Source: Trichodesmium erythraeum IMS101 (lineage in GTDB: Bacteria; Cyanobacteriota; Cyanobacteriia; Cyanobacteriales; Microcoleaceae). From it: a stretch of DNA of 32,000 nt. The stretch covers positions 1,320,001 through 1,352,000 of the forward strand of contig NC_008312.1 in assembly GCF_000014265.1 (NCBI RefSeq), written 5' to 3'. Positions 21,178 through 32,000 of the stretch are shown piece by piece; the first letter of the stretch is position 1, and each line of letters begins with the position of its first letter. Below the pieces are notes generated by a model, which saw only the letters and a program-made list of their open reading frames with translations, searched no databases and was not told the origin of the DNA. Position numbers and translations under genes: made by a program.

Positions 21178-23412
21178 CTACTCCTGTCGCAAACTAATAG
21201 CAGCTTGTACCATATTCCGAGTTGCCGGAATTGCCTCTTCCCAACGACGAGTTTTCAAACCACAGTCGGGATTAACCCAAATTTGAGTTACAGGCAGATA
21301 CTGAATACACTTATACAAACTTTCCCTCAAATATTCAGTAGTAGGAATACTCGGAGAGTGAACGTCATAAACTCCTGGTCCAACCTGAGCAGGATAATCA
21401 GCATCAGTCAGTTGCATTAAAGTCTCATTATTACTACGACTATCCTCAATAGAAATTACGTCAGCATCCAATTGCTTAATAGATTCCATAATGTCGCCGA
21501 ACTCAGAGTAACACATATGAGTATGTACCTGAGTTTCTGGTCGAGCGATCGCCGTCGATAAACGAAAAGCATCAACTGCCCAATTCAAATATTCGTGCCA
21601 ACGCTGTTGTTTTAGTGGCAAACCTTCCCGCATTGCTGGTTCATCTACTTGAATAAAAGCAGCACCTGCCTTTTCTAAATCTTTCAGTTCTTCGCGAATA
21701 GCTAATGCTAATTGGAATGCCTGTTCTTGGCGAGAAATATCGGTCCGGGGATAAGACCAATTCAACATGGTTACTGGTCCAGTTAACATTCCTTTTACTG
21801 GTTTTTCAGTTAAAGATTGAGCAACTTCAAATTCCCGAATTGTCATTGCATGAGGGCGATAAATATCACCAAAAATAATTGGCGGGCGTACATAACGACT
21901 GCCATAACTTTGTACCCAACCATGAGTAGTAAAAGTATAACCATCTAACTGTTCACCGAAGTATTCCACCATGTCAGAACGTTCAAATTCTCCATGGACT
22001 AAAACATCCATTCCCATCCCTTCTTGTAGACCAATACAGTAGGCAATATTAGCATCAATTTGTGCTAAATATTCAGCTTGAGTCAGCTCGCCTTTTTTAT
22101 AACGTGCTCGTAATTTTCTAACTTGTTTAGTCTGGGGAAATGAGCCGATAGTTGTAGTGGGAAAAGCAGGTAATTTTATTTGATTGTCTAATCTTTCTAA
22201 ATAAGACATGCTTCGCCTAAAGTCTGTTTCTTTCAGTGCTTTAATTTGACTTTTTACTTTTTCATTGGCAGGGCTAAATTTATAAAATTCTTGCCAGTAG
22301 ATTTCGATATTTTCTATCTCTGACTTATTACTTTTTCCAGTCAATGCTTTAGATAATAAAACTGTCTCTTCTAGTTTTTGCTCGGCAAAACTTAATACAT
22401 TTCGCAGTGCTTCTGGGAGTTTTACCTCACGTCTAACATCATAAGGCACAAATTGTAAAGAAGCAGAAGGCTGTACAGAAATATTAGGAATAATCCCCTT
22501 TAATTCCTCTAATAAAGATGTTACTTCTTGAGTACGAATTCGCCAAATATTTCGAGCATCAACTACACCAGCACCTAGAGTTTTATCTGCTGGAAAACCA
22601 TAACTTTTAATTAGTTCTAAATTTTGACCGCGAGTCAAGTCGAGACTAATAGATGTTACTGGCAATTTCATCACCCAAGGATAGGTTTCTCCCAGGTCAT
22701 CAAAGTAGGTGACAAGATGAATATTTAATCCCACTTTTGCTAATTCAGCATAAGCCATCTCGAACTGTTTTTTAAGATTAGAAGAATCGCCAAAAACTAA
22801 AGCAGGTTCGTGTAATTGTATTTCCGAAATTCCTAACTTTTTTAGTTTAGTTAATAGGTCGCTGTATAGCGGCAATAGTTGAGCGAGAATATTGTCAAAT
22901 TCTACAGATTCTAAACGACTTAAACGGATAAAAGTAATAGGGCTGATAATAATAGGAACTGCACTTTTGCCTATTATTTTTTTCGCGCGTTTCACAGTTT
23001 CTAAGAAATCAGAAAAATCTGCTTTGGGAGTAATATCTGGTGTAATTTCTGGCACTAAATAGTGATAGTTTGTATCAAACCATTTAGTCATTTCTAATGC
23101 TAGAATACCATCTTTTCCTCGTGCCATTGCAAAGTAGCATTCTAAATTTTGGAATTGTTGAAAACGCTTGGGAATTATTCCGAAACGAAAACTCCAATCT
23201 AATATTTGGTCGTAGAGAGTAGCATCACCAATACCAATTCGTTCTATACCTGCTTTAGTTTGGGTTTGCCAACTTGCCTCTTCAATTTCTCGGACAATTT
23301 TTAGCAATTCATCAGCACTAATTTTTTGTTGCCAAAATGATTCGAGTGCTTTTTTAACTTCGCGGTTTTTCCCTATGCGGGGATATCCCAAAGTTGATGT
23401 TGATATTGACAT
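21178..23412 (-). CDS. metE: 5-methyltetrahydropteroyltriglutamate--homocysteine S-methyltransferase (cobalamin-independent methionine synthase)
   Basis: 744 aa. N-terminus STLGYPRIGKNREVKKALESFW. C-terminal barrel with TTIGSFPQT, HTHMCYSEF and NPDCGLKTR zinc/substrate motifs. Confidence 0.97.
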   Translation of the reverse strand: MSISTSTLGYPRIGKNREVKKALESFWQQKISADELLKIVREIEEASWQTQTKAGIERIGIGDATLYDQILDWSFRFGIIPKRFQQFQNLECYFAMARGKDGILALEMTKWFDTNYHYLVPEITPDITPKADFSDFLETVKRAKKIIGKSAVPIIISPITFIRLSRLESVEFDNILAQLLPLYSDLLTKLKKLGISEIQLHEPALVFGDSSNLKKQFEMAYAELAKVGLNIHLVTYFDDLGETYPWVMKLPVTSISLDLTRGQNLELIKSYGFPADKTLGAGVVDARNIWRIRTQEVTSLLEELKGIIPNISVQPSASLQFVPYDVRREVKLPEALRNVLSFAEQKLEETVLLSKALTGKSNKSEIENIEIYWQEFYKFSPANEKVKSQIKALKETDFRRSMSYLERLDNQIKLPAFPTTTIGSFPQTKQVRKLRARYKKGELTQAEYLAQIDANIAYCIGLQEGMGMDVLVHGEFERSDMVEYFGEQLDGYTFTTHGWVQSYGSRYVRPPIIFGDIYRPHAMTIREFEVAQSLTEKPVKGMLTGPVTMLNWSYPRTDISRQEQAFQLALAIREELKDLEKAGAAFIQVDEPAMREGLPLKQQRWHEYLNWAVDAFRLSTAIARPETQVHTHMCYSEFGDIMESIKQLDADVISIEDSRSNNETLMQLTDADYPAQVGPGVYDVHSPSIPTTEYLRESLYKCIQYLPVTQIWVNPDCGLKTRRWEEAIPATRNMVQAAISLRQE

Positions 23413-24846: not shown

Positions 24847-25490
24847 ATTTTATTTCTTTTGAAATTTATGTAAGACTTTCTATCGCAACTTCCGTGCTAA
24901 TACCAAAGCAGTTGCGATCGCGATTAATTCCACCGTTAACTATCGCTCTTATTACTTATTTTTATATTTTTAACAGTAGATTCTCAAGCACTTTTTGCAC
25001 TTTTTATCAATTTTCTAGCTGTTATTTTTTTCTTCTTTATTGAAGAAGGCAGAAGGGAAAATTAAATAAAGAAAATTTCCACCCCAAGCAATTTTAAGCG
25101 CAGTGATTATGGTAGGCTATTAAATCCACAAAAGAAAATATAAATGCTAATTCACTTCTTTCTAACTAGTAGCTTTTTCCCAGAGTTTGGTTTAAATAAG
25201 TTCTGTCTAAATATCTGTAGCGAAAGGTTCTTATTTAGGGCTAATTCCCTTCTTATCAAAACTATATTAGTCATCATCTATACCTCGCAGATGTTTGATA
25301 AAGTTACTATTAATCGGCGGGCATTCTGACTGAGAGATAATAAAGTATCTCATCACAGTTGCGGGACAGCGACGGATTTACACCGAACTTTCCCCGTTTC
25401 CTCTAATAGCTGCTCTCTATTAGAACCGATTGATTTCATATTAAAACACAGATACTTAATTAATGCAATACTTTTACAAATTTTTTTTAG

Positions 25491-26796
25491 CTGGACTTTC
25501 AAAAAAAATGCAGTAAATTAGGTTAAGATTATTATATATTAAGACTTTTACCTAAAAATGATAGCTGATGAAAGAAACAACTTTATCTGCCTTACCACCA
25601 TGCTATCAATTGTGGCGTCAAAAATTTGATGAAATATTTCAAAACCAAAGCTCAAAAAAGAGGATTTTGTTATTATTTGGCAGGATTATTAGGAGAAAGT
25701 AAACGCAAAAATATTGCTCAAATTACCCACAATATTATCGGCTCTTCATATAATAATATGCATCATTTTATATACTTTGCAGGCTGGGGCTGAAAATTCG
25801 ATAAATGAGCGTCATTTAGAAATTATGAATCAACAACCTGCAAACCCGATTAGAAATGGATTTGCTCTGATTATTGATGATAATTACCATAGAAAAAGTG
25901 GTAATTTTACTGGTGGAATAGGCCGACAATATCTTGGATAAATTGGAAAAACAGATAATGGAGTAGTAATAGTCAGAACTCACCTATATAATGGAGTGCG
26001 CAGCCTACCTTTGGATGTGGAGTTGTACCAAAAGTTATCATCTTTACCAGATAGTAAAGATGATCAAGAATTTGTTAAAAAAACCGATTTAGCAATCAAG
26101 GAACGTGAAAAAAACTTTGTCTAGAAAATATCGACTAGGTATAACTTTAGTGGATAGAGTTTATGGTAATAATTCGTCTTTTCGCAATAGAATTAGAACA
26201 ACTCGAACTTAAATATATAGGGGGTAGTGCGAAAAATCTTCAGGTAAGTTTTATTAATCAAAAAAACTGGCAAAAAACAATCACAAAAAAGGTTAGATGA
26301 AATCGCCTTATCTTTACCACAAAAGGCTTTTTAAGCAGGAACATTAAAACAAGATATACCCAAAACAGTTTGGGTAGCTACTATAAAAGTAGAAACCAAA
26401 GGTTTAACTGGGACTAGAACTATAGTAATCCTCATGAATAATAGTTCTATATCTGAAGCTACTGAAATTGATTATTTAATGACAAATAAACAATATAAAA
26501 GTGTGACAGGAGAATGGATAGTCACCACCTTTTATGAGAGAAACTATATTGAAAATTTTTATAGGGAAACTAAGGGATGCTTGGGTTTAAAAGAATATTT
26601 TGTCAGAGATAAAACCAGTATGATGCGTCATTTTATCTTAGTTTTTGTAGCCTATACTTTCCTTCTTTACCAACAATTAATGGGAGGCTTGAGAAAGGGT
26701 TATTCTTACACCAGTTTGACAAATTTTACAGAGACATTAGAAGCATTTATGACTGGCTGTTTCCTACAAATTTTTTTGCTGGTTACAAGAGAATCA
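25491..26796 (+). mobile_element. IS701-like element, copy 1 (degenerate; right end replaced by or merged into the tandem array)
   Basis: The left end CTGGACTTTCAAAAAAAATGCAG resembles the copy-2 left end and is preceded by TTAG. The transposase-like reading MKETTLSALPPCYQLWRQKFDEIF...ALIIDDNYHRKSGNFTGGIGRQYLG*IGKTDNGVVIV...FYRETKGCLGLKEYFVRD has stops and frameshifts. Homology to copy 2 fades near 26797. Confidence 0.75.
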
Positions 26797-29700
26797 AGTC
26801 AGTCAGATTAATTCATCTAAATCTCAAATATTGTCTGAGATAGTTTGATTAGGGATTTTTCATAGAAATTTGGGCTGACAAGGTTTTATTGCGATATGCG
26901 CAATAGGAGTTTTTACTCACTTATTTCGGCTGACAAGGTTTTATTGCGATATGCGCAATAGGAGTTTTTACTCACTTACTTCGGCTCAGTCAGATTAATT
27001 CATCTAAATCTCAAATATTGTCTGAGATAGTTTGATTAGGGATTTTTCATAGAAATTTGGGCTGACAAGGTTTTATTGCGATATGCGCAATAGGAGTTTT
27101 TACTCACTTACTTCGGCTGACAAGGTTTTATTGCGATATGCGCAATAGGAGTTTTTACTCACTTACTTCGGCTCAGTCAGATTAATTCATCTAAATCTCA
27201 AATATTGTCTGAGATAGTTTGATTAGGGATTTTTCATAGAAATTTGGGCTGACAAGGTTTTATTGCGGTATGCGCAATAGGAATTTTTACTCACTTATTT
27301 CGGCTGACAAGGTTTTATTGCGATATGCGCAATAGGAGTTTTTACTCACTTACTTCGGCTCAGTCAGATTAATTCATCTAAATCTCAAATATTGTCTGAG
27401 ATAGTTTGATTAGGGATTTTTCATAGAAATTTGGGCTGACAAGGTTTTATTGCGATATGCGCAATAGGAGTTTTTACTCACTTACTTCGGCTGACAAGGT
27501 TTTATTGCGGTATGCGCAATAGGAGTTTTTACTCACTTACTTCGGCTCAGTCAGATTAATTCATCTAAATCTCAAATATTGTCTGAGATAGTTTGATTAG
27601 GGATTTTTCATAGAAATTTGGGCTGACAAGGTTTTATTGCGATATGCGCAATAGGAGTTTTTACTCACTTACTTCGGCTGACAAGGTTTTATTGCGGTAT
27701 GCGCAATAGGAGTTTTTACTCACTTACTTCGGCTCAGTCAGATTAATTCATCTAAATCTCAAATATTGTCTGAGATAGTTTGATTAGGGATTTTTCATAG
27801 AAATTTGGGCTGACAAGGTTTTATTGCGATATGCGCAATAGGAGTTTTTACTCACTTACTTCGGCTGACAAGGTTTTATTGCGATATGCGCAATAGGAGT
27901 TTTTACTCACTTACTTCGGCTCAGTCAGATTAATTCATCTAAATCTCAAATATTGTCTGAGATAGTTTGATTAGGGATTTTTCATAGAAATTTGGGCTGA
28001 CAAGGTTTTATTGCGGTATGCGCAATAGGAATTTTTACTCACTTATTTCGGCTGACAAGGTTTTATTGCGATATGCGCAATAAGAATTTTTACTCACTTA
28101 CTTCGGCTCAGTCAGATTAATTCATCTAAATCTCAAATATTGTCTGAGATAGTTTGATTAGGGATTTTTCATAGAAATTTGGGCTGACAAGGTTTTATTG
28201 CGACATGGGCAATAGGAGTTTTTACTCACTTACTTCGGCTGACAAGGTTTTATTGCGGTATGCGCAATAGGAGTTTTTACTCACTTACTTCGGCTGACAA
28301 GGTTTTATTGCGATATGCGCAATAGGAGTTTTTACTCACTTACTTCGGCTCAGTCAGATTAATTCATCTAAATCTCAAATATTGTCTGAGATAGTTTGAT
28401 TAGGGATTTTTTATAGAAATTTGGGCTGACAAGGTTTTATTGCGATATGCGCAATAGGAGTTTTTACTCACTTACTTCGGCTGACAAGGTTTTATTGCGG
28501 TATGCGCAATAGGAGTTTTTACTCACTTACTTCGGCTCAGTCAGATTAATTCATCTAAATCTCAAATATTGTCTGAGATAGTTTGATTAGGGATTTTTCA
28601 TAGAAATTTGGGCTGACAAGGTTTTATTGCGATATGCGCAATAGGAGTTTTTACTCACTTATTTCGGCTGACAAGGTTTTATTGCGATATGCGCAATAGG
28701 AATTTTTACTCACTTACTTCGGCTCAGTCAGATTAATTCATCTAAATCTCAAATATTGTCTGAGATAGTTTGATTAGGGATTTTTCATAGAAATTTGGGC
28801 TGACAAGGTTTTATTGCGATATGCGCAATAGGAGTTTTTACTCACTTACTTCGGCTCAGTCAGATTAATTCATCTAAATCTCAAATATTGTCTGAGATAG
28901 TTTGATTAGGGATTTTTCATAGAAATTTGGGCTGACAAGGTTTTATTGCGATATGCGCAATAGGAGTTTTTACTCACTTATTTCGGCTGACAAGGTTTTA
29001 TTGCGGTATGCGCAATAGGAGTTTTTACTCACTTATTTCGGCTCAGTCAGATTAATTCATCTAAATCTCAAATATTGTCTGAGATAGTTTGATTAGCGGG
29101 ACTTTAGTGAAAAAATAGTAAAAAAAAGGGTATAATGTATACCTGATATGTATTTTACGTTAATTACTGGCCTGGGAAAAGTTTGATGAAAGAAACAACT
29201 TCAGTGGCCATGCCCTCTTGTTTCCATCGATGGTGCGATCGCTTTAACAATGTCTTTAAAACAAAAGCCCAAAAAACAGGGTTTAGGGAATATATAGGAG
29301 GATTACTCTTGAGAAAGCGATCGAAAAAACTTGTCTCAAATTGCCAACAACACTGTAGGTCACACGTACCACAAATTACGGCATTTTCTAGTTCGAGCAA
29401 ATTGGTCTGTAGATGCTGTGAATGAGCGTCGTCTTCAAGTAATGTGGGAACGTCGCCAAACAAAACCTTCTCGATCCTATTGCTTTAATTATAGACGATT
29501 CAGGCCACAGAAAAAGTGGTAATTTTACTGCAGGAGTAGGGCGGCAATATATAGGAGAAATAGGAAAAACAGATAATGGTGTAGTCGTGGTGACAACTCA
29601 TCTTTATGATGGAGTTAAAAGTCTACCTTTAGACATAGCTTTGTATCAGAAAGCTGATTCTTTTCCAAAAGGAAAAAAAGACCCAGAATTTGTCAAGAAA

Positions 29701-32000
29701 CCAGACGAGTGCAATGTCTCTAGTAGATCAATGTTTGTCCAGAGGACACCAACCAGAAATTGTGTTAATTGAAATTTGGCTATGGTAACAATACATCATT
29801 CTTAAATCAACTAGAGAAAAGAAGTTTAACTTATATAGGAGGATTAGCTAAAAATCGAAAAGTCATCATTAAAAAACAAGATGACATTAAAGAGGAAATT
29901 AGATTAGACAAGCTGGCAGAAAGTATACCTCAGAAAGCTTTCAACTTAGTTCAACTAAGTACAAAAAATGCTAGAGAAGTTTGGGTAGCTACATTAGAAG
30001 TAGAAATATCTAGGATGTCAGGTCAAAAAACTATAGCTATCGTTATGAATGCTAAAAGTTTTTCTGAGGCCACTGATATTAACTATTATATCACTAATAG
30101 AGAAGACAAATATGTAACTCCTGAGTGGATATATTCTACTTATTCTCAAAGAAATTGGGTGGAAGTTTTCTACAGGGAAGCCAAAGGATGGTTAGGATTA
30201 AGAGAATATCAAGTCAGAGATAAAATCAGCCTTAAAAGGCATTTTATTTTAGTATTTTGTGCTTATACATTTATTATCTGGCATCAGTTAACAGGAGGTA
30301 TAAGAAGGCGTTGGGCTAACAAACCATTAAATACGTTTACTGATACTTTAGAAGCATTTCGTACCGCAATATCTTATCGTTTTGTTGAGTGGTTAGATGA
30401 AAACATCGACGTATTTACCGCTCATAAAGAGAGTTTAGGGTTTGTTTGGGCTTGAAATTTGCTAAAGTCCCGTTAGGGATTTTTCATAGAAATTTGGGCT
30501 GACAAGGTTTTATTGCGATATGCGCAATAGGAGTTTTTACTCACTTACTTCGGCTCAGTCAGATTAATTCATCTAAATCTCAAATATTGTCTGAGATAGT
30601 TTGATTAGGGATTTTTCATAGAAATTTGGGCTGACAAGGTTTTATTGCGGTATGCGCAATAGGAGTTTTTACTCACTTACTTCGGCTGACAAGGTTTTAT
30701 TGCGATATACGCAATAGGAATTTTTACTCACTTACTTCGACTCAGTCAGATTAATTCATCTAAATCTCAAATATTGTCTGAGATAGTTTGATTAGGGATT
30801 TTTCATAGAAATTTGGGCTGACAAGGTTTTATTGCGGTATGCGCAATAGGAGTTTTTACTCACTTACTTCGGCTGACAAGGTTTTATTGCGATATACGCA
30901 ATAGGAATTTTTACTCACTTACTTCGACTCAGTCAGATTAATTCATCTAAATCTCAAATATTGTCTGAGATAGTTTGATTAGGGATTTTTCATAGAAATT
31001 TGGGCTGACAAGGTTTTATTGCGATATGCGCAATAGGAGTTTTTACTCACTTACTTCGGCTGACAAGGTTTTATTGCGATATGCGCAATAGGAATTTTTA
31101 CTCACTTACTTCGGCTCAGTCAGATTAATTCATCTAAATCTCAAATATTGTCTGAGATAGTTTGATTAGGGATTTTTCATAGAAATTTGGGCTGACAAGG
31201 TTTTATTGCGATATGCGCAATAGGAGTTTTTACTCACTTACTTCGGCTGACAAGGTTTTATTGCGGTATGCGCAATAGGAGTTTTTACTCACTTACTTCG
31301 GCTCAGTCAGATTAATTCATCTAAATCTCAAATATTGTCTGAAATAGTTTGATTAGGGATTTTTCATAGAAATTTGTGCTGACAAGGTTTTATTGCGATA
31401 TGCGCAATAGGAGTTTTTACTCACTTACTTCGGCTGACAAGGTTTTATTGCGATATGCGCAATAGGAATTTTTACTCACTTACTTCGGCTCAGTCAGATT
31501 AATTCATCTAAATCTCAAATATTGTCTGAGATAGTTTGATTAGGGATTTTTCATAGAAATTTGGGCTGACAAGGTTTTATTGCGATATGCGCAATAGGAG
31601 TTTTTACTCACTTATTTCGGCTGACAAGGTTTTATTGCGATATGCGCAATAGAAGTTTTTACTCACTTACTTCGGCTCAGTCAGATTAATTCATCTAAAT
31701 CTCAAATATTGTCTGAGATAGTTTGATTAGGGATTTTTCATAGAAATTTGGGCTGACAAGGTTTTATTGCGATATGCGCAATAGGAGTTTTTACTCACTT
31801 ACTTCGGCTCAGTCAGATTAATTCATCTAAATCTCAAATATTGTCTGAGATAGTTTGATTAGGGATTTTTCATAGAAATTTGGGCTGACAAGGTTTTATT
31901 GCGATATGCGCAATAGGAGTTTTTACTCACTTATTTCGGCTGACAAGGTTTTATTGCGGTATGCGCAATAGGAGTTTTTACTCACTTATTTCGGCTCAGT
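26797..32000. repeat. Higher-order non-coding tandem array of X (77 nt) and Y (55 nt) modules, 187-nt X-Y-Y unit; continues past the window end; interrupted by an IS at 29097-30472
   Basis: X starts at 26797, 26984, 27171, 27358, 27545, 27732, 27919, 28106, 28348, 28535, 28722, 28854, 29041, 30553, 30740, 30927, 31114, 31301, 31488, 31675, 31807 and 31994. There are 40 Y copies. Differences between copies are scattered single-base variants only. Outside the inserted IS, no ORF of 60 aa or more occurs on either strand. Confidence 0.97.
29097..30472 (+). mobile_element. IS701-like element, copy 2 (1376 bp, complete ends, frameshifted transposase)
   Basis: Terminal inverted repeats are CGGGACTTTAGTGAA (left) and the reverse complement of TTGCTAAAGTCCCG (right), identical over the first 11 bp. 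It is flanked by a TTAG direct repeat (29093-29096 and 30473-30476). Removing IS plus one TTAG restores an intact X unit. The transposase is split over at least 4 frame segments (29183-29425, 29331-29522, about 29476-29772, 29769-30455). Confidence 0.85.

What the first reader, a model, noticed from the sequence alone, without database searches (positions are those of the whole stretch)
26797..32000. Large two-module higher-order tandem array (X77/Y55, 187-nt unit) of unknown function
From 26797 to the window end, apart from one IS, the DNA consists of two modules only. X is GCTCAGTCAGATTAATTCATCTAAATCTCAAATATTGTCTGAGATAGTTTGATTAGGGATTTTTCATAGAAATTTGG. Y is GCTGACAAGGTTTTATTGCGATATGCGCAATAGGAGTTTTTACTCACTTACTTCG. 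I count 22 X starts and 40 Y copies. Spacing between X starts is 187 nt (X-Y-Y) in 17 of 21 intervals, 132 nt (X-Y) in three, and 242 nt (X-Y-Y-Y) in one, after subtracting the IS. None of these periods is a multiple of 3, and the ORF track shows no ORF of 60 aa or more in the array, so it is non-coding. There are no unique spacers, so it is not CRISPR. Copies differ only by scattered point variants, which implies ongoing homogenisation or selection. I see three candidate roles: an array of sRNA genes or a processed repeat precursor, a multi-site protein-binding array, or an IS-seeded satellite. I recall that Trichodesmium transcriptomics reported very abundant ncRNAs, some from repeats, so novelty must be checked before any claim.
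Basis: partly seen in the sequence, partly recalled or inferred. Interest (0 to 1): 0.9.

Follow-up and report, generated by a model that had tools for sequence, protein, structure and literature searches.

The report
Amplified COP23 terminator-hairpin repeat array
The 5-kb two-module repeat in Trichodesmium erythraeum IMS101 is real, and it is a runaway tandem copy of the small hairpin-and-U-tract "terminator" cassette that sits after the COP23 gene in Trichodesmium and Okeania; it is an unusual expansion of an ordinary kind of element, not a new kind of system.

Summary
There are 22 X starts, 40 Y copies, 17 XYY, 3 XY and 1 XYYY units, all head-to-tail on the + strand and 98.9% identical to consensus. 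One IS (29097-30472, TTAG duplication) interrupts the array, and no ORF exceeds 45 codons. The window is T. erythraeum IMS101, next to Tery_0852.

First, every Y is a terminator-like hairpin (10-bp stem, 5-nt loop, then GUUUUU) on the + strand. Second, X and Y are not orphan sequences. X is the leader that follows the COP23 stop codon plus a decayed hairpin, and Y is the hairpin unit found there.

The same hairpin units stand in tandem between COP23 and a TPR-CHAT gene, always in sense orientation:
- 19 in Okeania KiyG1
- at least 13 in Okeania SIO2C9
- about 10 in a related MAG
- 4 in T. erythraeum
- 2 in T. thiebautii

The stem and T-run are identical across genera, while the loop and the COP23 third codon positions diverge.

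The IMS101 array is a lineage-specific amplification of that whole cassette, now upstream of COP23. A Red Sea T. erythraeum MAG shows only 2 Y there. The most likely reading is tandem intrinsic terminators with a neutral copy number. Transcription remains untested.

The parts
26797..29096 (+). Array part 1. It holds 12 complete X-led units (XYY x10, XYYY x1, XY x1) plus the first 56 nt of a 13th X. The left edge is a deletion junction with a decayed IS fragment; the first X reads AG instead of GC at positions 1-2.
26884..26914 (+). Example Y hairpin: TTTTATTGCG-ATATG-CGCAATAGGA followed by GTTTTT. It is terminator-like. The same element occurs in all 40 Y copies.
   Evidence: One search found 24 such sites in 26000-29200 against 1.7 expected in shuffles. 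One search gives a hairpin energy of -9.5 to -11.5 kcal/mol.
29097..30472 (+). IS element (1376 bp) inserted in an X after position 56. It has terminal inverted repeats CGGGACTTTAG/CTAAAGTCCCG, and the TTAG target duplication lies at 29093-29096 and 30473-30476. The DDE_Tnp_1 transposase is split into several ORFs. The 228-aa ORF is ABG50262 (inferred to be Tery_0853 from accession order), one of many identical copies in IMS101.
30473..32000 (+). Array part 2. It holds the second TTAG copy, the last 21 nt of the split X, then Y, then 8 further X-led units (XYY x7, XY x1) and a 7-nt X start at the window end. The array runs off the window.
28535..29096 (+). Block XYY-XY-XYY-X whose point variants recur in the same order at 31488-32000 (offset 2953 nt). 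This indicates a multi-unit duplication inside the array, as expected from unequal recombination.
   Evidence: variant table; 319-nt and 132-nt TRF rows at both places
31488..32000 (+). Second copy of the XYY-XY-XYY-X block.
25714..26796 (+). Decayed IS4/IS701-like element, about 66% identical to the IS inside the array. It includes the 125-aa ORF Tery_0852 (26434-26811), which reads 15 nt into the first X. In IMS101 its 3' end is cut off by the array; in MAG_R01 the IS end is intact.

Best explanation
The array is a lineage-specific tandem amplification of the COP23 3' cassette.

Shown:
- Y is a 55-nt unit whose core is a 10-bp hairpin with a 5-nt loop, followed by a run of five T on the + strand.
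- X consists of the 47-nt leader that follows the COP23 stop codon, plus a 30-nt decayed copy of the first hairpin. X begins with the sequence that normally follows the last hairpin (GAGGCTCAAT). One X-Y-Y unit is therefore one whole 'leader plus three hairpins' cassette joined head-to-tail to the next.
- Y-like units stand in tandem directly after COP23 and before a TPR-CHAT gene in Okeania, in a related MAG and in Trichodesmium. They are always in the sense orientation, and the stem and T-run are conserved.

Inferred:
- Each hairpin with its U-tract is a Rho-independent terminator. It may also act as a 3'-end protecting hairpin. The ancestral tandem set ends the COP23 transcript and shields the downstream CHAT gene.
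- In the ancestor of T. erythraeum and T. thiebautii, a copy of the cassette came to lie upstream of COP23.
- In the IMS101 lineage that copy grew by unequal recombination or replication slippage to at least 22 cassettes (at least 40 intact hairpins). The copies are kept similar by the same process.
- In this position the array can at most act as a one-way block to transcription reading in from the IS elements towards COP23. The copy number itself is probably not selected.
For: Hairpin and T-run:
- 24 terminator-like sites lie on the + strand in 26000-29200, against 1.7 expected in shuffles.
- The hairpin energy is -9.5 to -11.5 kcal/mol.

Homology of X and Y to the COP23 3' flank:
- Two 135-nt X'-Y'-Y' units, 75-80% identical to X-Y, start right after the COP23 stop in six T. 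erythraeum contigs.

Conservation across genera:
- Okeania KiyG1 has 19 units.
- Okeania SIO2C9 has 13 full units plus an assembly gap.
- The MAG bin.35 has 6 strong units alternating with decayed ones.
- Stem arms and T-run are 28/28 identical between T. erythraeum and Okeania, although COP23 is only 60-76% identical in protein and 74-84% at third codon positions.
- The loop differs freely.
- In 22 Trichodesmium variants, 97.7% of cells are paired. Two pairs carry changes on both sides (C:G to U:A), and two pairs vary among U.G and U-A. C-G appears as well once the Okeania and bin.35 units are added. Such changes keep pairing only in + strand RNA.

Specificity:
- The covariance model scores 41-60 bits on the sense strand and 22-28 bits on the other strand.
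- It finds no full-length match outside the COP23 flanks in about 260 kb of sequence.

Locus and copy-number variation:
- Contig L035 (99.65% identical to the window over 9.1 kb, with the same left junction) shows last Y, then about 310 nt, then COP23.
- In IMS101 the accession order runs Tery_0852 = ABG50261, the IS ORF = ABG50262, the CHAT protein = ABG50265.
- T. erythraeum MAG_R01 has only an X tail plus 2 Y at this place.
- T. thiebautii contigs have about 3 Y and 2 X.
- Another haplotype, L032, has no array.
- An internal block duplication is visible in the variant table.
- Short-read contigs of other strains and of ocean metagenomes break inside the array.

Background, from my own knowledge and not tested here: cyanobacteria lack Rho and rely on intrinsic terminators.
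Against: - No transcript 3' ends, transcription starts or expression data were available for this locus.
- The stem is AU-rich, with only three G-C pairs, so single units may terminate weakly.
- Covariation is thin. On the wider alignment that includes Okeania, the covariation score is not above shuffles (140/500). The hairpin therefore rests mainly on conservation.
- Near-perfect sequence conservation of both stem arms across genera is more than a plain terminator needs, and hints at sequence-specific recognition.
- One or two terminators would do the job, so 13-19 units in Okeania are not explained by termination alone.
- The terminator scan is not specific in this genome: elsewhere in the window it finds 10 sites against 9.9 expected.
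- The short arrays in MAG and metagenome contigs (L034, L035, L040) could be collapsed assemblies.
- The right end of the array in IMS101 itself lies outside the window.
Confidence: 0.55

Rival explanations
1. The array acts at the RNA level. The conserved hairpins would be recognition sites for an RNA-binding protein or nuclease. Alternatively, the array would be cut into many small hairpin RNAs, acting as an sRNA or 'sponge' array. In either case the tandem set after COP23, and the amplified set in IMS101, would tune the strongly day/night-cycled COP23 message or the neighbouring CHAT protease gene. This resembles the NsiR1 tandem sRNA array upstream of hetF in heterocystous cyanobacteria.
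For: - Both stem arms are sequence-invariant across genera while the loop is free. This is more than a terminator needs.
- Tandem copy number is high in three Okeania-clade genomes.
- The U.G/U-A/C-G changes fit + strand RNA pairing.
[quoted passage not shown] Here the ancestral array lies upstream of a CHAT, caspase-like gene.
- The published IMS101 libraries left out RNAs under 300 nt (PMC4143802), so small products would have been missed.
Against: - No promoter-like site was found on the + strand inside the array.
- Linker length differs between genera (51/52 versus 55 nt), so no fixed -35/-10 geometry is conserved.
- Rfam, which includes sRNA families, gives no match.
- The large array is apparently missing in a conspecific MAG.
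- In contigs with the IMS101-type junction, the adjacent COP23 carries a nonsense codon. That fits decay better than a tuned regulator.
Confidence: 0.2
2. The array acts at the DNA level. The palindrome ATTGCG-N5-CGCAAT would be the operator of a dimeric regulator, and the tandem copies would form a multi-site binding or titration array near the COP23 promoter.
For: The 7-bp arms are perfect and invariant with a variable 5-bp spacer. The array lies next to a gene with strong diel regulation in other diazotrophs (PMC6315102).
Against: - The conserved element is not symmetric. The T-run and the ACTCA flank are conserved on one side only, and the model scores about 30 bits higher on one strand.
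- The outer stem positions pair only as U.G in RNA and are not palindromic in DNA.
- In Okeania the array lies after the COP23 stop codon, not at its promoter.
- One stem pair changed on both sides (GCG/CGC to GTG/CAC) in the downstream copies, which keeps the hairpin but alters both half-sites.
Confidence: 0.1
3. The array is an inert satellite with no function at any level, including in its ancestral form, or it is inflated by misassembly of the Sanger-era genome.
For: - Copy number appears to vary between conspecific contigs and species.
- An IS sits inside the array without evident harm.
- The neighbouring COP23 is truncated in T. thiebautii-type contigs and carries a nonsense codon in the IMS101-type metagenome contigs, and the IMS101 CHAT protein is shorter than in other strains.
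- T. erythraeum is known for a 40% non-coding genome rich in repeats (PMC4143802).
Against: - Cross-genus conservation of the hairpin arms and T-run above the level of COP23 third codon positions argues for selection on the unit.
- Orientation relative to COP23 and CHAT is always the same.
- Unit-specific point variants, and independent assemblies breaking at the same edge, argue against a pure assembly artefact.
Confidence: 0.12

Closest known systems
Tandem Rho-independent (intrinsic) terminators, such as double terminators after highly expressed operons
   Same: A stem-loop followed by a U-tract, on the sense strand directly after a stop codon, with several in series.
   Different: There are 4-19 units in series in the ancestral position and at least 40 in IMS101. 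The units are near-identical tandem repeats with a higher-order period. The stem sequence is conserved across genera. Termination was not measured.
REP/BIME (REPIN) extragenic palindromes of proteobacteria
   Same: Short extragenic hairpin repeats, often clustered after genes, that can stop transcription or protect mRNA 3' ends.
   Different: REPs are dispersed at hundreds of loci, usually as inverted pairs, and are tied to RAYT transposases. Here all copies are direct, sit at one locus, and were found nowhere else in about 260 kb.
NsiR1 tandem sRNA array upstream of hetF in heterocystous cyanobacteria (Ionescu et al. 2010, as summarised in PMC6596454)
   Same: A cyanobacterial tandem array of short direct repeats, each ending in a hairpin, placed upstream of a caspase-like protease gene.
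   Different: Each NsiR1 unit has its own heterocyst-specific promoter. No promoter is evident here, there is no sequence or Rfam match, the units are shorter (51-55 nt), and the downstream gene is a TPR-CHAT protein with a C-terminal protease domain that has not been shown to be hetF.
The >6-kb tandem repeat array of T. erythraeum IMS101 at 103-110 kb (Pfreundt et al. 2014, PMC4143802)
   Same: Same genome. It is a long non-coding tandem array next to transposases, and part of a neighbouring gene was duplicated into the repeat.
   Different: It has 7 units of 736-973 bp, an unrelated sequence, and one strong promoter per unit giving roughly 260-nt RNAs. No such data exist for the array studied here.
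Higher-order satellite repeats (alpha-satellite type organisation)
   Same: Two sub-modules are arranged in a higher-order unit. Identity between units is very high, multi-unit blocks are duplicated, and copy number is polymorphic, as expected from unequal crossing-over.
   Different: This array is bacterial, only a few kb long, and derived from a recognisable functional cassette.

Membership tests
Intrinsic (Rho-independent) terminator | Stable stem-loop with G-C pairs | tested here: met
   10-bp stem (3 G-C, 2 G.U), 5-nt loop, -9.5 to -11.5 kcal/mol
Intrinsic (Rho-independent) terminator | U-tract directly 3' of the stem | tested here: met
   GTTTTT follows one base after the stem. T31-T33 are invariant and T30 nearly invariant in 25 variants from 5 taxa.
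Intrinsic (Rho-independent) terminator | Lies at the 3' end of a transcription unit, in sense orientation | tested here: met
   The ancestral copies start about 40-45 nt after the COP23 stop in T. erythraeum, T. thiebautii, two Okeania genomes and bin.35. The window's own array lies after an IS fragment and upstream of COP23, in the same orientation.
Intrinsic (Rho-independent) terminator | RNA 3' ends or reduced read-through at the site | not testable with these tools
   No RNA data are held; the supplementary tables of PMC4143802 are not available.
CRISPR array | Repeats separated by unique spacers | tested here: not met
   Modules abut with zero gap, and all sequence is X or Y.
REP/BIME/REPIN | Dispersed at many extragenic loci | tested here: not met
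   The model R1 finds full matches only beside COP23. Scans with the exact T. erythraeum Y core gave only chance single hits; the genome scan could not be repeated with a looser pattern.
REP/BIME/REPIN | Copies in inverted pairs | tested here: not met
   All 40 Y and all X are on the + strand.
NsiR1-type tandem sRNA gene array | A promoter in every unit | tested here: not met
   No + strand promoter-like site lies in 26797-29096. The scan covers only sigma-70-type consensus, so this is weak negative evidence.
NsiR1-type tandem sRNA gene array | Match to the family's RNA model | tested here: not met
   No Rfam match at gathering score or at E<=10.
NsiR1-type tandem sRNA gene array | Discrete small transcripts from the units | not testable with these tools
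   Published IMS101 libraries excluded RNAs under 300 nt.
IS- or MITE-derived repeat | Similarity to a mobile element, or terminal inverted repeats and target duplication per unit | tested here: not met
   No similarity to either IS copy, to plasmids or to phages. The units have no terminal inverted repeats.
Tandem satellite with higher-order period, maintained by unequal recombination | Head-to-tail units, higher-order period, near-identity, multi-unit duplications, copy-number polymorphism | tested here: met
   Searches cover the array structure. Searches cover the polymorphism, with the caveat that short-read contigs may collapse repeats.

The most novel reading that the evidence does not exclude
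The tandem hairpin set between COP23 and the TPR-CHAT gene, conserved from Okeania to Trichodesmium, would be a previously undescribed cis-regulatory RNA array. Its sequence-invariant hairpins would be bound or cut by a specific factor. It could set COP23 mRNA life-time or gate read-through into the caspase-like CHAT gene, or it could release many small hairpin RNAs. It would then be a non-heterocystous counterpart of the NsiR1 array upstream of hetF, and the IMS101 array would be a greatly amplified copy of it.
Probability: 0.2. Interest if true: 0.7.

Novelty: new variant of a known kind. Interest (0 to 1): 0.45.

Why it matters
This result turns an apparently orphan 5-kb repeat in a 40% non-coding genome into something with a traceable origin: a gene's 3' terminator cassette that was duplicated, moved and amplified. 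That is a concrete example of how Trichodesmium's non-coding DNA grows. It also shows why short-read assemblies of this organism break at this locus.

Separately, the work exposes a hairpin array that is conserved between genera and tied to COP23. COP23 has been reported only in nitrogen-fixing cyanobacteria and has very strong day/night cycling in some of them (PMC6315102). No paper found here describes the array. If the hairpins prove to be more than terminators, they would give a handle on the control of COP23 and of the neighbouring caspase-like protease gene.

Tried and rejected
Searches that found nothing:
- Scans of the genome, metagenome and viral collections with the Y core TTATTGCGNTATGCGCAATA gave only single chance hits in unrelated bacteria. 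The pattern was too specific to T. erythraeum to catch the T. thiebautii and Okeania variants. IMS101 itself gave no hit, so I assume, without proof, that it is masked or absent there.
- Rfam gave nothing at the gathering score or at E<=10 for the window array and for three related loci.
- BLAST of an X-Y-Y-X-Y-Y stretch against plasmids and phages found nothing.
- Literature searches for the locus tags Tery_0852-0857, for COP23 plus repeats or terminators, and for Trichodesmium repeats or hairpins found no description. The supplementary TSS table of Pfreundt et al. is not held.

Dead ends:
- The IMS101 chromosome could not be retrieved beyond the window by way of Tery_0852.
- A fuzzy-regex extraction timed out and was replaced by an anchor search.

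Readings considered and rejected:
- CRISPR: there are no spacers.
- Coding repeat: the longest open stretch is 45 codons, and the periods 55, 77, 132, 187 and 242 nt are not multiples of 3.
- IS-seeded or MITE origin: there is no similarity to the IS copies, and the modules are older than the IS insertions.
- Identity with the published abundant repeat RNA: that is a different locus.
- Integron attC-type cassette sites: COP23 is flanked by the repeats, and a heptamer ACCTAAC run lies upstream of it, but I saw no integrase gene in the stretches read (not searched for systematically) and the units carry no core sites. I did not pursue this further.
- hetF orthology of the CHAT gene: the domain order is TPR at the N-terminus and CHAT at the C-terminus, and the best NCBIfam hit is a far sub-threshold match to Csx29.

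Full report
**1. The observation**

Tandem Repeats Finder reports a 187-nt period over 26799-29096 and 30497-31809, with nested 55-, 132-, 242- and 374-nt periods.

One more X is split after its position 56 by an insertion sequence, and a 7-nt X start sits at the window end. That makes 22 X starts. With the IS and one copy of its TTAG target duplication removed, the array reads as 17 XYY, 3 XY and 1 XYYY. It covers 3824 nt and has 41 differences from consensus, which is 98.9% identity.

The IS spans 29097-30472. It has terminal inverted repeats CGGGACTTTAG/CTAAAGTCCCG, and its ORF matches DDE_Tnp_1; the transposase reading frame is fragmented. No ORF of 60 aa or more lies in the repeat, and the longest open stretch is 45 codons.

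**2. Where the window comes from**

MetE (21178-23412), the TENA/CADD-family protein and the 125-aa ORF at 26434-26811 are exact matches to Trichodesmium erythraeum IMS101 proteins. The 125-aa ORF is Tery_0852, a fragment of an IS4-like transposase.

That one lies at 103-110 kb and has seven units of 736-973 bp (PMC4143802). The array studied here is not mentioned in that paper's main text, and its TSS table is not held. No paper was found that names Tery_0852-0857 or describes a COP23-linked repeat.

**3. What Y is**

Each Y carries TTTTATTGCG-ATATG-CGCAATAGGA followed by GTTTTT. The consensus scan finds 24 such terminator-like sites on the + strand in 26000-29200, against 1.7 expected from shuffles. 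It finds no promoter-like site on the + strand of the array.

The hairpin folds at -9.5 to -11.5 kcal/mol. X alone folds no better than its shuffles. On the opposite strand the hairpin is shorter and is followed by AAAACC, not by a U-run.

**4. What X and Y come from**

Short-read contigs of other T. erythraeum strains and ocean samples all break within 30-225 nt of the array's left edge. This shows that the repeat is real and multi-copy outside IMS101 as well. Three contigs cross the locus.

- *L035*, a metagenome contig, is 99.65% identical to the window over 9.1 kb and has the same left junction. It reads X-Y-Y-Y, then about 310 nt that include a run of ACCTAAC/ACCTGAC heptamers, then a COP23 gene (PF14218) on the same strand.
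- *L034*, from Trichodesmium sp. MAG_R01, is 98.3% identical in the flank. It has the IS fragment's intact end, about 50 nt of unique sequence, the last 12 nt of X, two Y, and then the same COP23 gene.
- In every T. erythraeum contig the COP23 stop codon is followed at once by two 135-nt units X'-Y'a-Y'b. These are 75-80% identical to X-Y. A TPR-CHAT gene follows on the same strand.

An alignment shows that the first 47 nt of X match the leader that follows the COP23 stop codon in five taxa. The last 30 nt of X are a decayed copy of the first hairpin; this is clearest in T. thiebautii, where X ends in GATTAGGGATGTTGTTATAGAAATTTTT. The first bases of X match GAGGCTCAAT, the sequence that normally follows the last hairpin. 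One X-Y-Y unit is therefore one whole COP23 3' cassette joined head-to-tail to the next.

In IMS101 itself the accession order runs ABG50261 (Tery_0852), ABG50262 (the IS ORF in the array) and ABG50265 (the CHAT protein). This places the array at the same locus there.

**5. Conservation beyond the species**

T. thiebautii-type contigs (MAG_R02 and six JGI metagenome contigs) carry Y-X-Y-X-Y at about 90% identity to X and Y. That is similar to the divergence of the flanking CHAT gene (89-98%). In these contigs the array is fused to a COP23 remnant of only 66-70 codons, and one cassette follows downstream.

Between the COP23 stop and the TPR-CHAT gene, three further genomes carry tandem units:

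| Genome | Units |
|---|---|
| Okeania sp. KiyG1 | 19 tandem units of 51/52 nt |
| Okeania sp. SIO2C9 | 13 full units plus an assembly gap |
| MAG bin.35 | 6 strong units alternating with decayed ones |

All units are in the sense orientation.

The stem arms and T-run (28 nt) are identical between T. erythraeum Y and the main Okeania unit, while the loop differs (ATATG against TATGT). Over the same evolutionary distance COP23 is only 60-76% identical in protein and 74-84% at third codon positions. More distant COP23 genes (48% identity) have no such array.

A covariance model of the 38-nt hairpin plus T-run scores 41-60 bits on the sense strand and 22-28 bits on the other strand. It finds no full-length match away from the COP23 flanks in about 260 kb of held sequence, which includes the other 26.8 kb of the window.

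**6. Structure evidence, stated plainly**

In 22 Trichodesmium variants, 97.7% of cells form standard pairs. Two pairs show changes on both sides (C:G to U:A, G:C to A:U). Two outer pairs vary among U.G and U-A; C-G also appears once the Okeania and bin.35 units are added. Such changes keep pairing only in + strand RNA.

When the Okeania and bin.35 variants are added, the covariation score is not above shuffles (140 of 500). The hairpin therefore rests mainly on conservation of the inverted repeat and the T-run. Compensatory support is only modest.

**7. How it most likely works**

*Shown:*
- the module anatomy;
- the homology of X-Y-Y to the COP23 3' cassette;
- the conserved position and orientation;
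- the conservation across genera;
- the copy-number differences between contigs;
- an internal block duplication, in which 28535-29096 recurs at 31488-32000 with the same variants.

*Inferred:*
- Each hairpin plus U-tract is an intrinsic terminator. It may also protect the RNA 3' end.
- The ancestral tandem set ends the COP23 transcript and shields the CHAT gene.
- A copy came to lie upstream of COP23 in the Trichodesmium ancestor.
- Unequal recombination or slippage then blew it up to at least 22 cassettes in the IMS101 lineage.
- In that position it can at most stop transcription that reads in from the decayed IS upstream and from the IS inside it, both of which point towards COP23. The IS left end carries the only + strand promoter-like site (29107-29136).

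The size is probably not selected, for three reasons. A conspecific MAG shows two Y at this place. A third haplotype, L032, has no array at all. The IMS101-type contigs carry a COP23 nonsense codon (CGA to TGA), and IMS101's CHAT protein is 532 aa against 775-780 aa elsewhere.

*Caveats:* short-read contigs can collapse repeats, the right end of the IMS101 array is outside the window, and no RNA data were available.

**8. Rivals**

- *RNA-level array (protein-binding hairpins or many small RNAs).* This is favoured by the sequence invariance of both stem arms and by the high copy number in Okeania. It has a cyanobacterial precedent in the NsiR1 tandem array upstream of hetF (PMC6596454). It lacks any promoter or Rfam support.
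- *DNA operator array.* This is disfavoured by the one-sided conserved flank, the strand asymmetry of the model scores, the U.G positions, and the location after the stop codon.
- *Wholly inert satellite or assembly artefact.* This is disfavoured by cross-genus conservation, by the unit-specific variants, and by independent assemblies breaking at the same edge.
- *IS-seeded origin.* This is rejected. X and Y have no similarity to either IS, to plasmids or to phages.

**9. Comparison and novelty**

The units meet the sequence criteria of intrinsic terminators. They fail the criteria for CRISPR, for REP/REPIN elements, for MITE or IS derivatives, and for membership of NsiR1. The array behaves like a small higher-order satellite built from a functional cassette.

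I rate it a new variant of a known kind. The amplified array is an oddity of genome growth. The conserved COP23-CHAT hairpin array is the more interesting by-product, and it appears to be undescribed in the literature I could search.

**10. Verdict**

- Observation: confirmed.
- Interest: 0.45.
- Most novel reading not excluded: a conserved regulatory RNA array controlling COP23/CHAT, with probability about 0.2 and interest of about 0.7 if true.

Noticed in passing
window 25299-25445 (-): A cobalamin riboswitch (Rfam RF00174, 55 bits) lies about 1.9 kb upstream of the B12-independent methionine synthase gene metE (23412-21178). A conserved 190-aa ORF with no Pfam match (24563-23991) and a 60-aa ORF sit between the riboswitch and metE. 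The same layout is present in all related contigs.
   Followed up: partly
L035 9430-9480; L038 1-90; L034 6265-6320 (- strand): A run of heptamer repeats (ACCTAAC/ACCTGAC) lies between the array and the COP23 promoter region. Its length differs between contigs (about 6 to at least 13 copies), and several short-read contigs start inside it.
   Followed up: no
L035 9653-10357; L036 405-1109: In the two contigs with the IMS101-type left junction, COP23 carries a nonsense codon (CGA to TGA at codon 75) that splits it into 74-aa and 118-aa ORFs. COP23 is intact (234 aa) in MAG_R01 and in three other contigs. Whether IMS101 itself carries the stop could not be checked.
   Followed up: partly
L040 7100-7363; L041-L046: In T. 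thiebautii-type contigs the X-Y array is fused directly to the last 66-70 codons of COP23. The junction TTTTATT|AATGAC shows microhomology with the gene, so this COP23 copy is a remnant there. A DDE_3 transposase fragment lies just upstream.
   Followed up: partly
ABG50265 (IMS101) against MCL2929048 and MDT9339762: The TPR-CHAT protein downstream of COP23 is annotated as 532 aa in IMS101 and GBRTRLIN201, but as 775-780 aa in MAG_R01 and strain 21-75. This suggests a truncated or disrupted allele in the lineage that has the large array.
   Followed up: no
L032 3665-5021 against window 26734: A third haplotype (ENA ERZ17095360) is 99.5% identical to the window up to 26734, inside the decayed IS. 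It then continues into unrelated genes (a weak flavoprotein match and a 235-aa ORF) with no array, so the site is a rearrangement hotspot.
   Followed up: partly
window 28535-29096 and 31488-32000: The same XYY-XY-XYY-X block, with the same point variants, occurs twice 2953 nt apart. The first copy ends in the X that carries the IS, and the second runs off the window. A second IS copy may therefore follow just beyond position 32000.
   Followed up: no
L048 3816-4070: In the MAG bin.35 array, intact hairpin units alternate with decayed ones (TTCTATTGAGTATGTAGAAATAGGAATTCTTAC) that have lost the T-run. This is a two-type higher-order pattern that arose independently of the X/Y pattern in Trichodesmium.
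   Followed up: no
window 29107-29136 (+): The only strong + strand promoter-like site near the array (GTGAAA-18-TATAAT, 10 of 12) lies in the left end of the inserted IS and points into the downstream half of the array.
   Followed up: no
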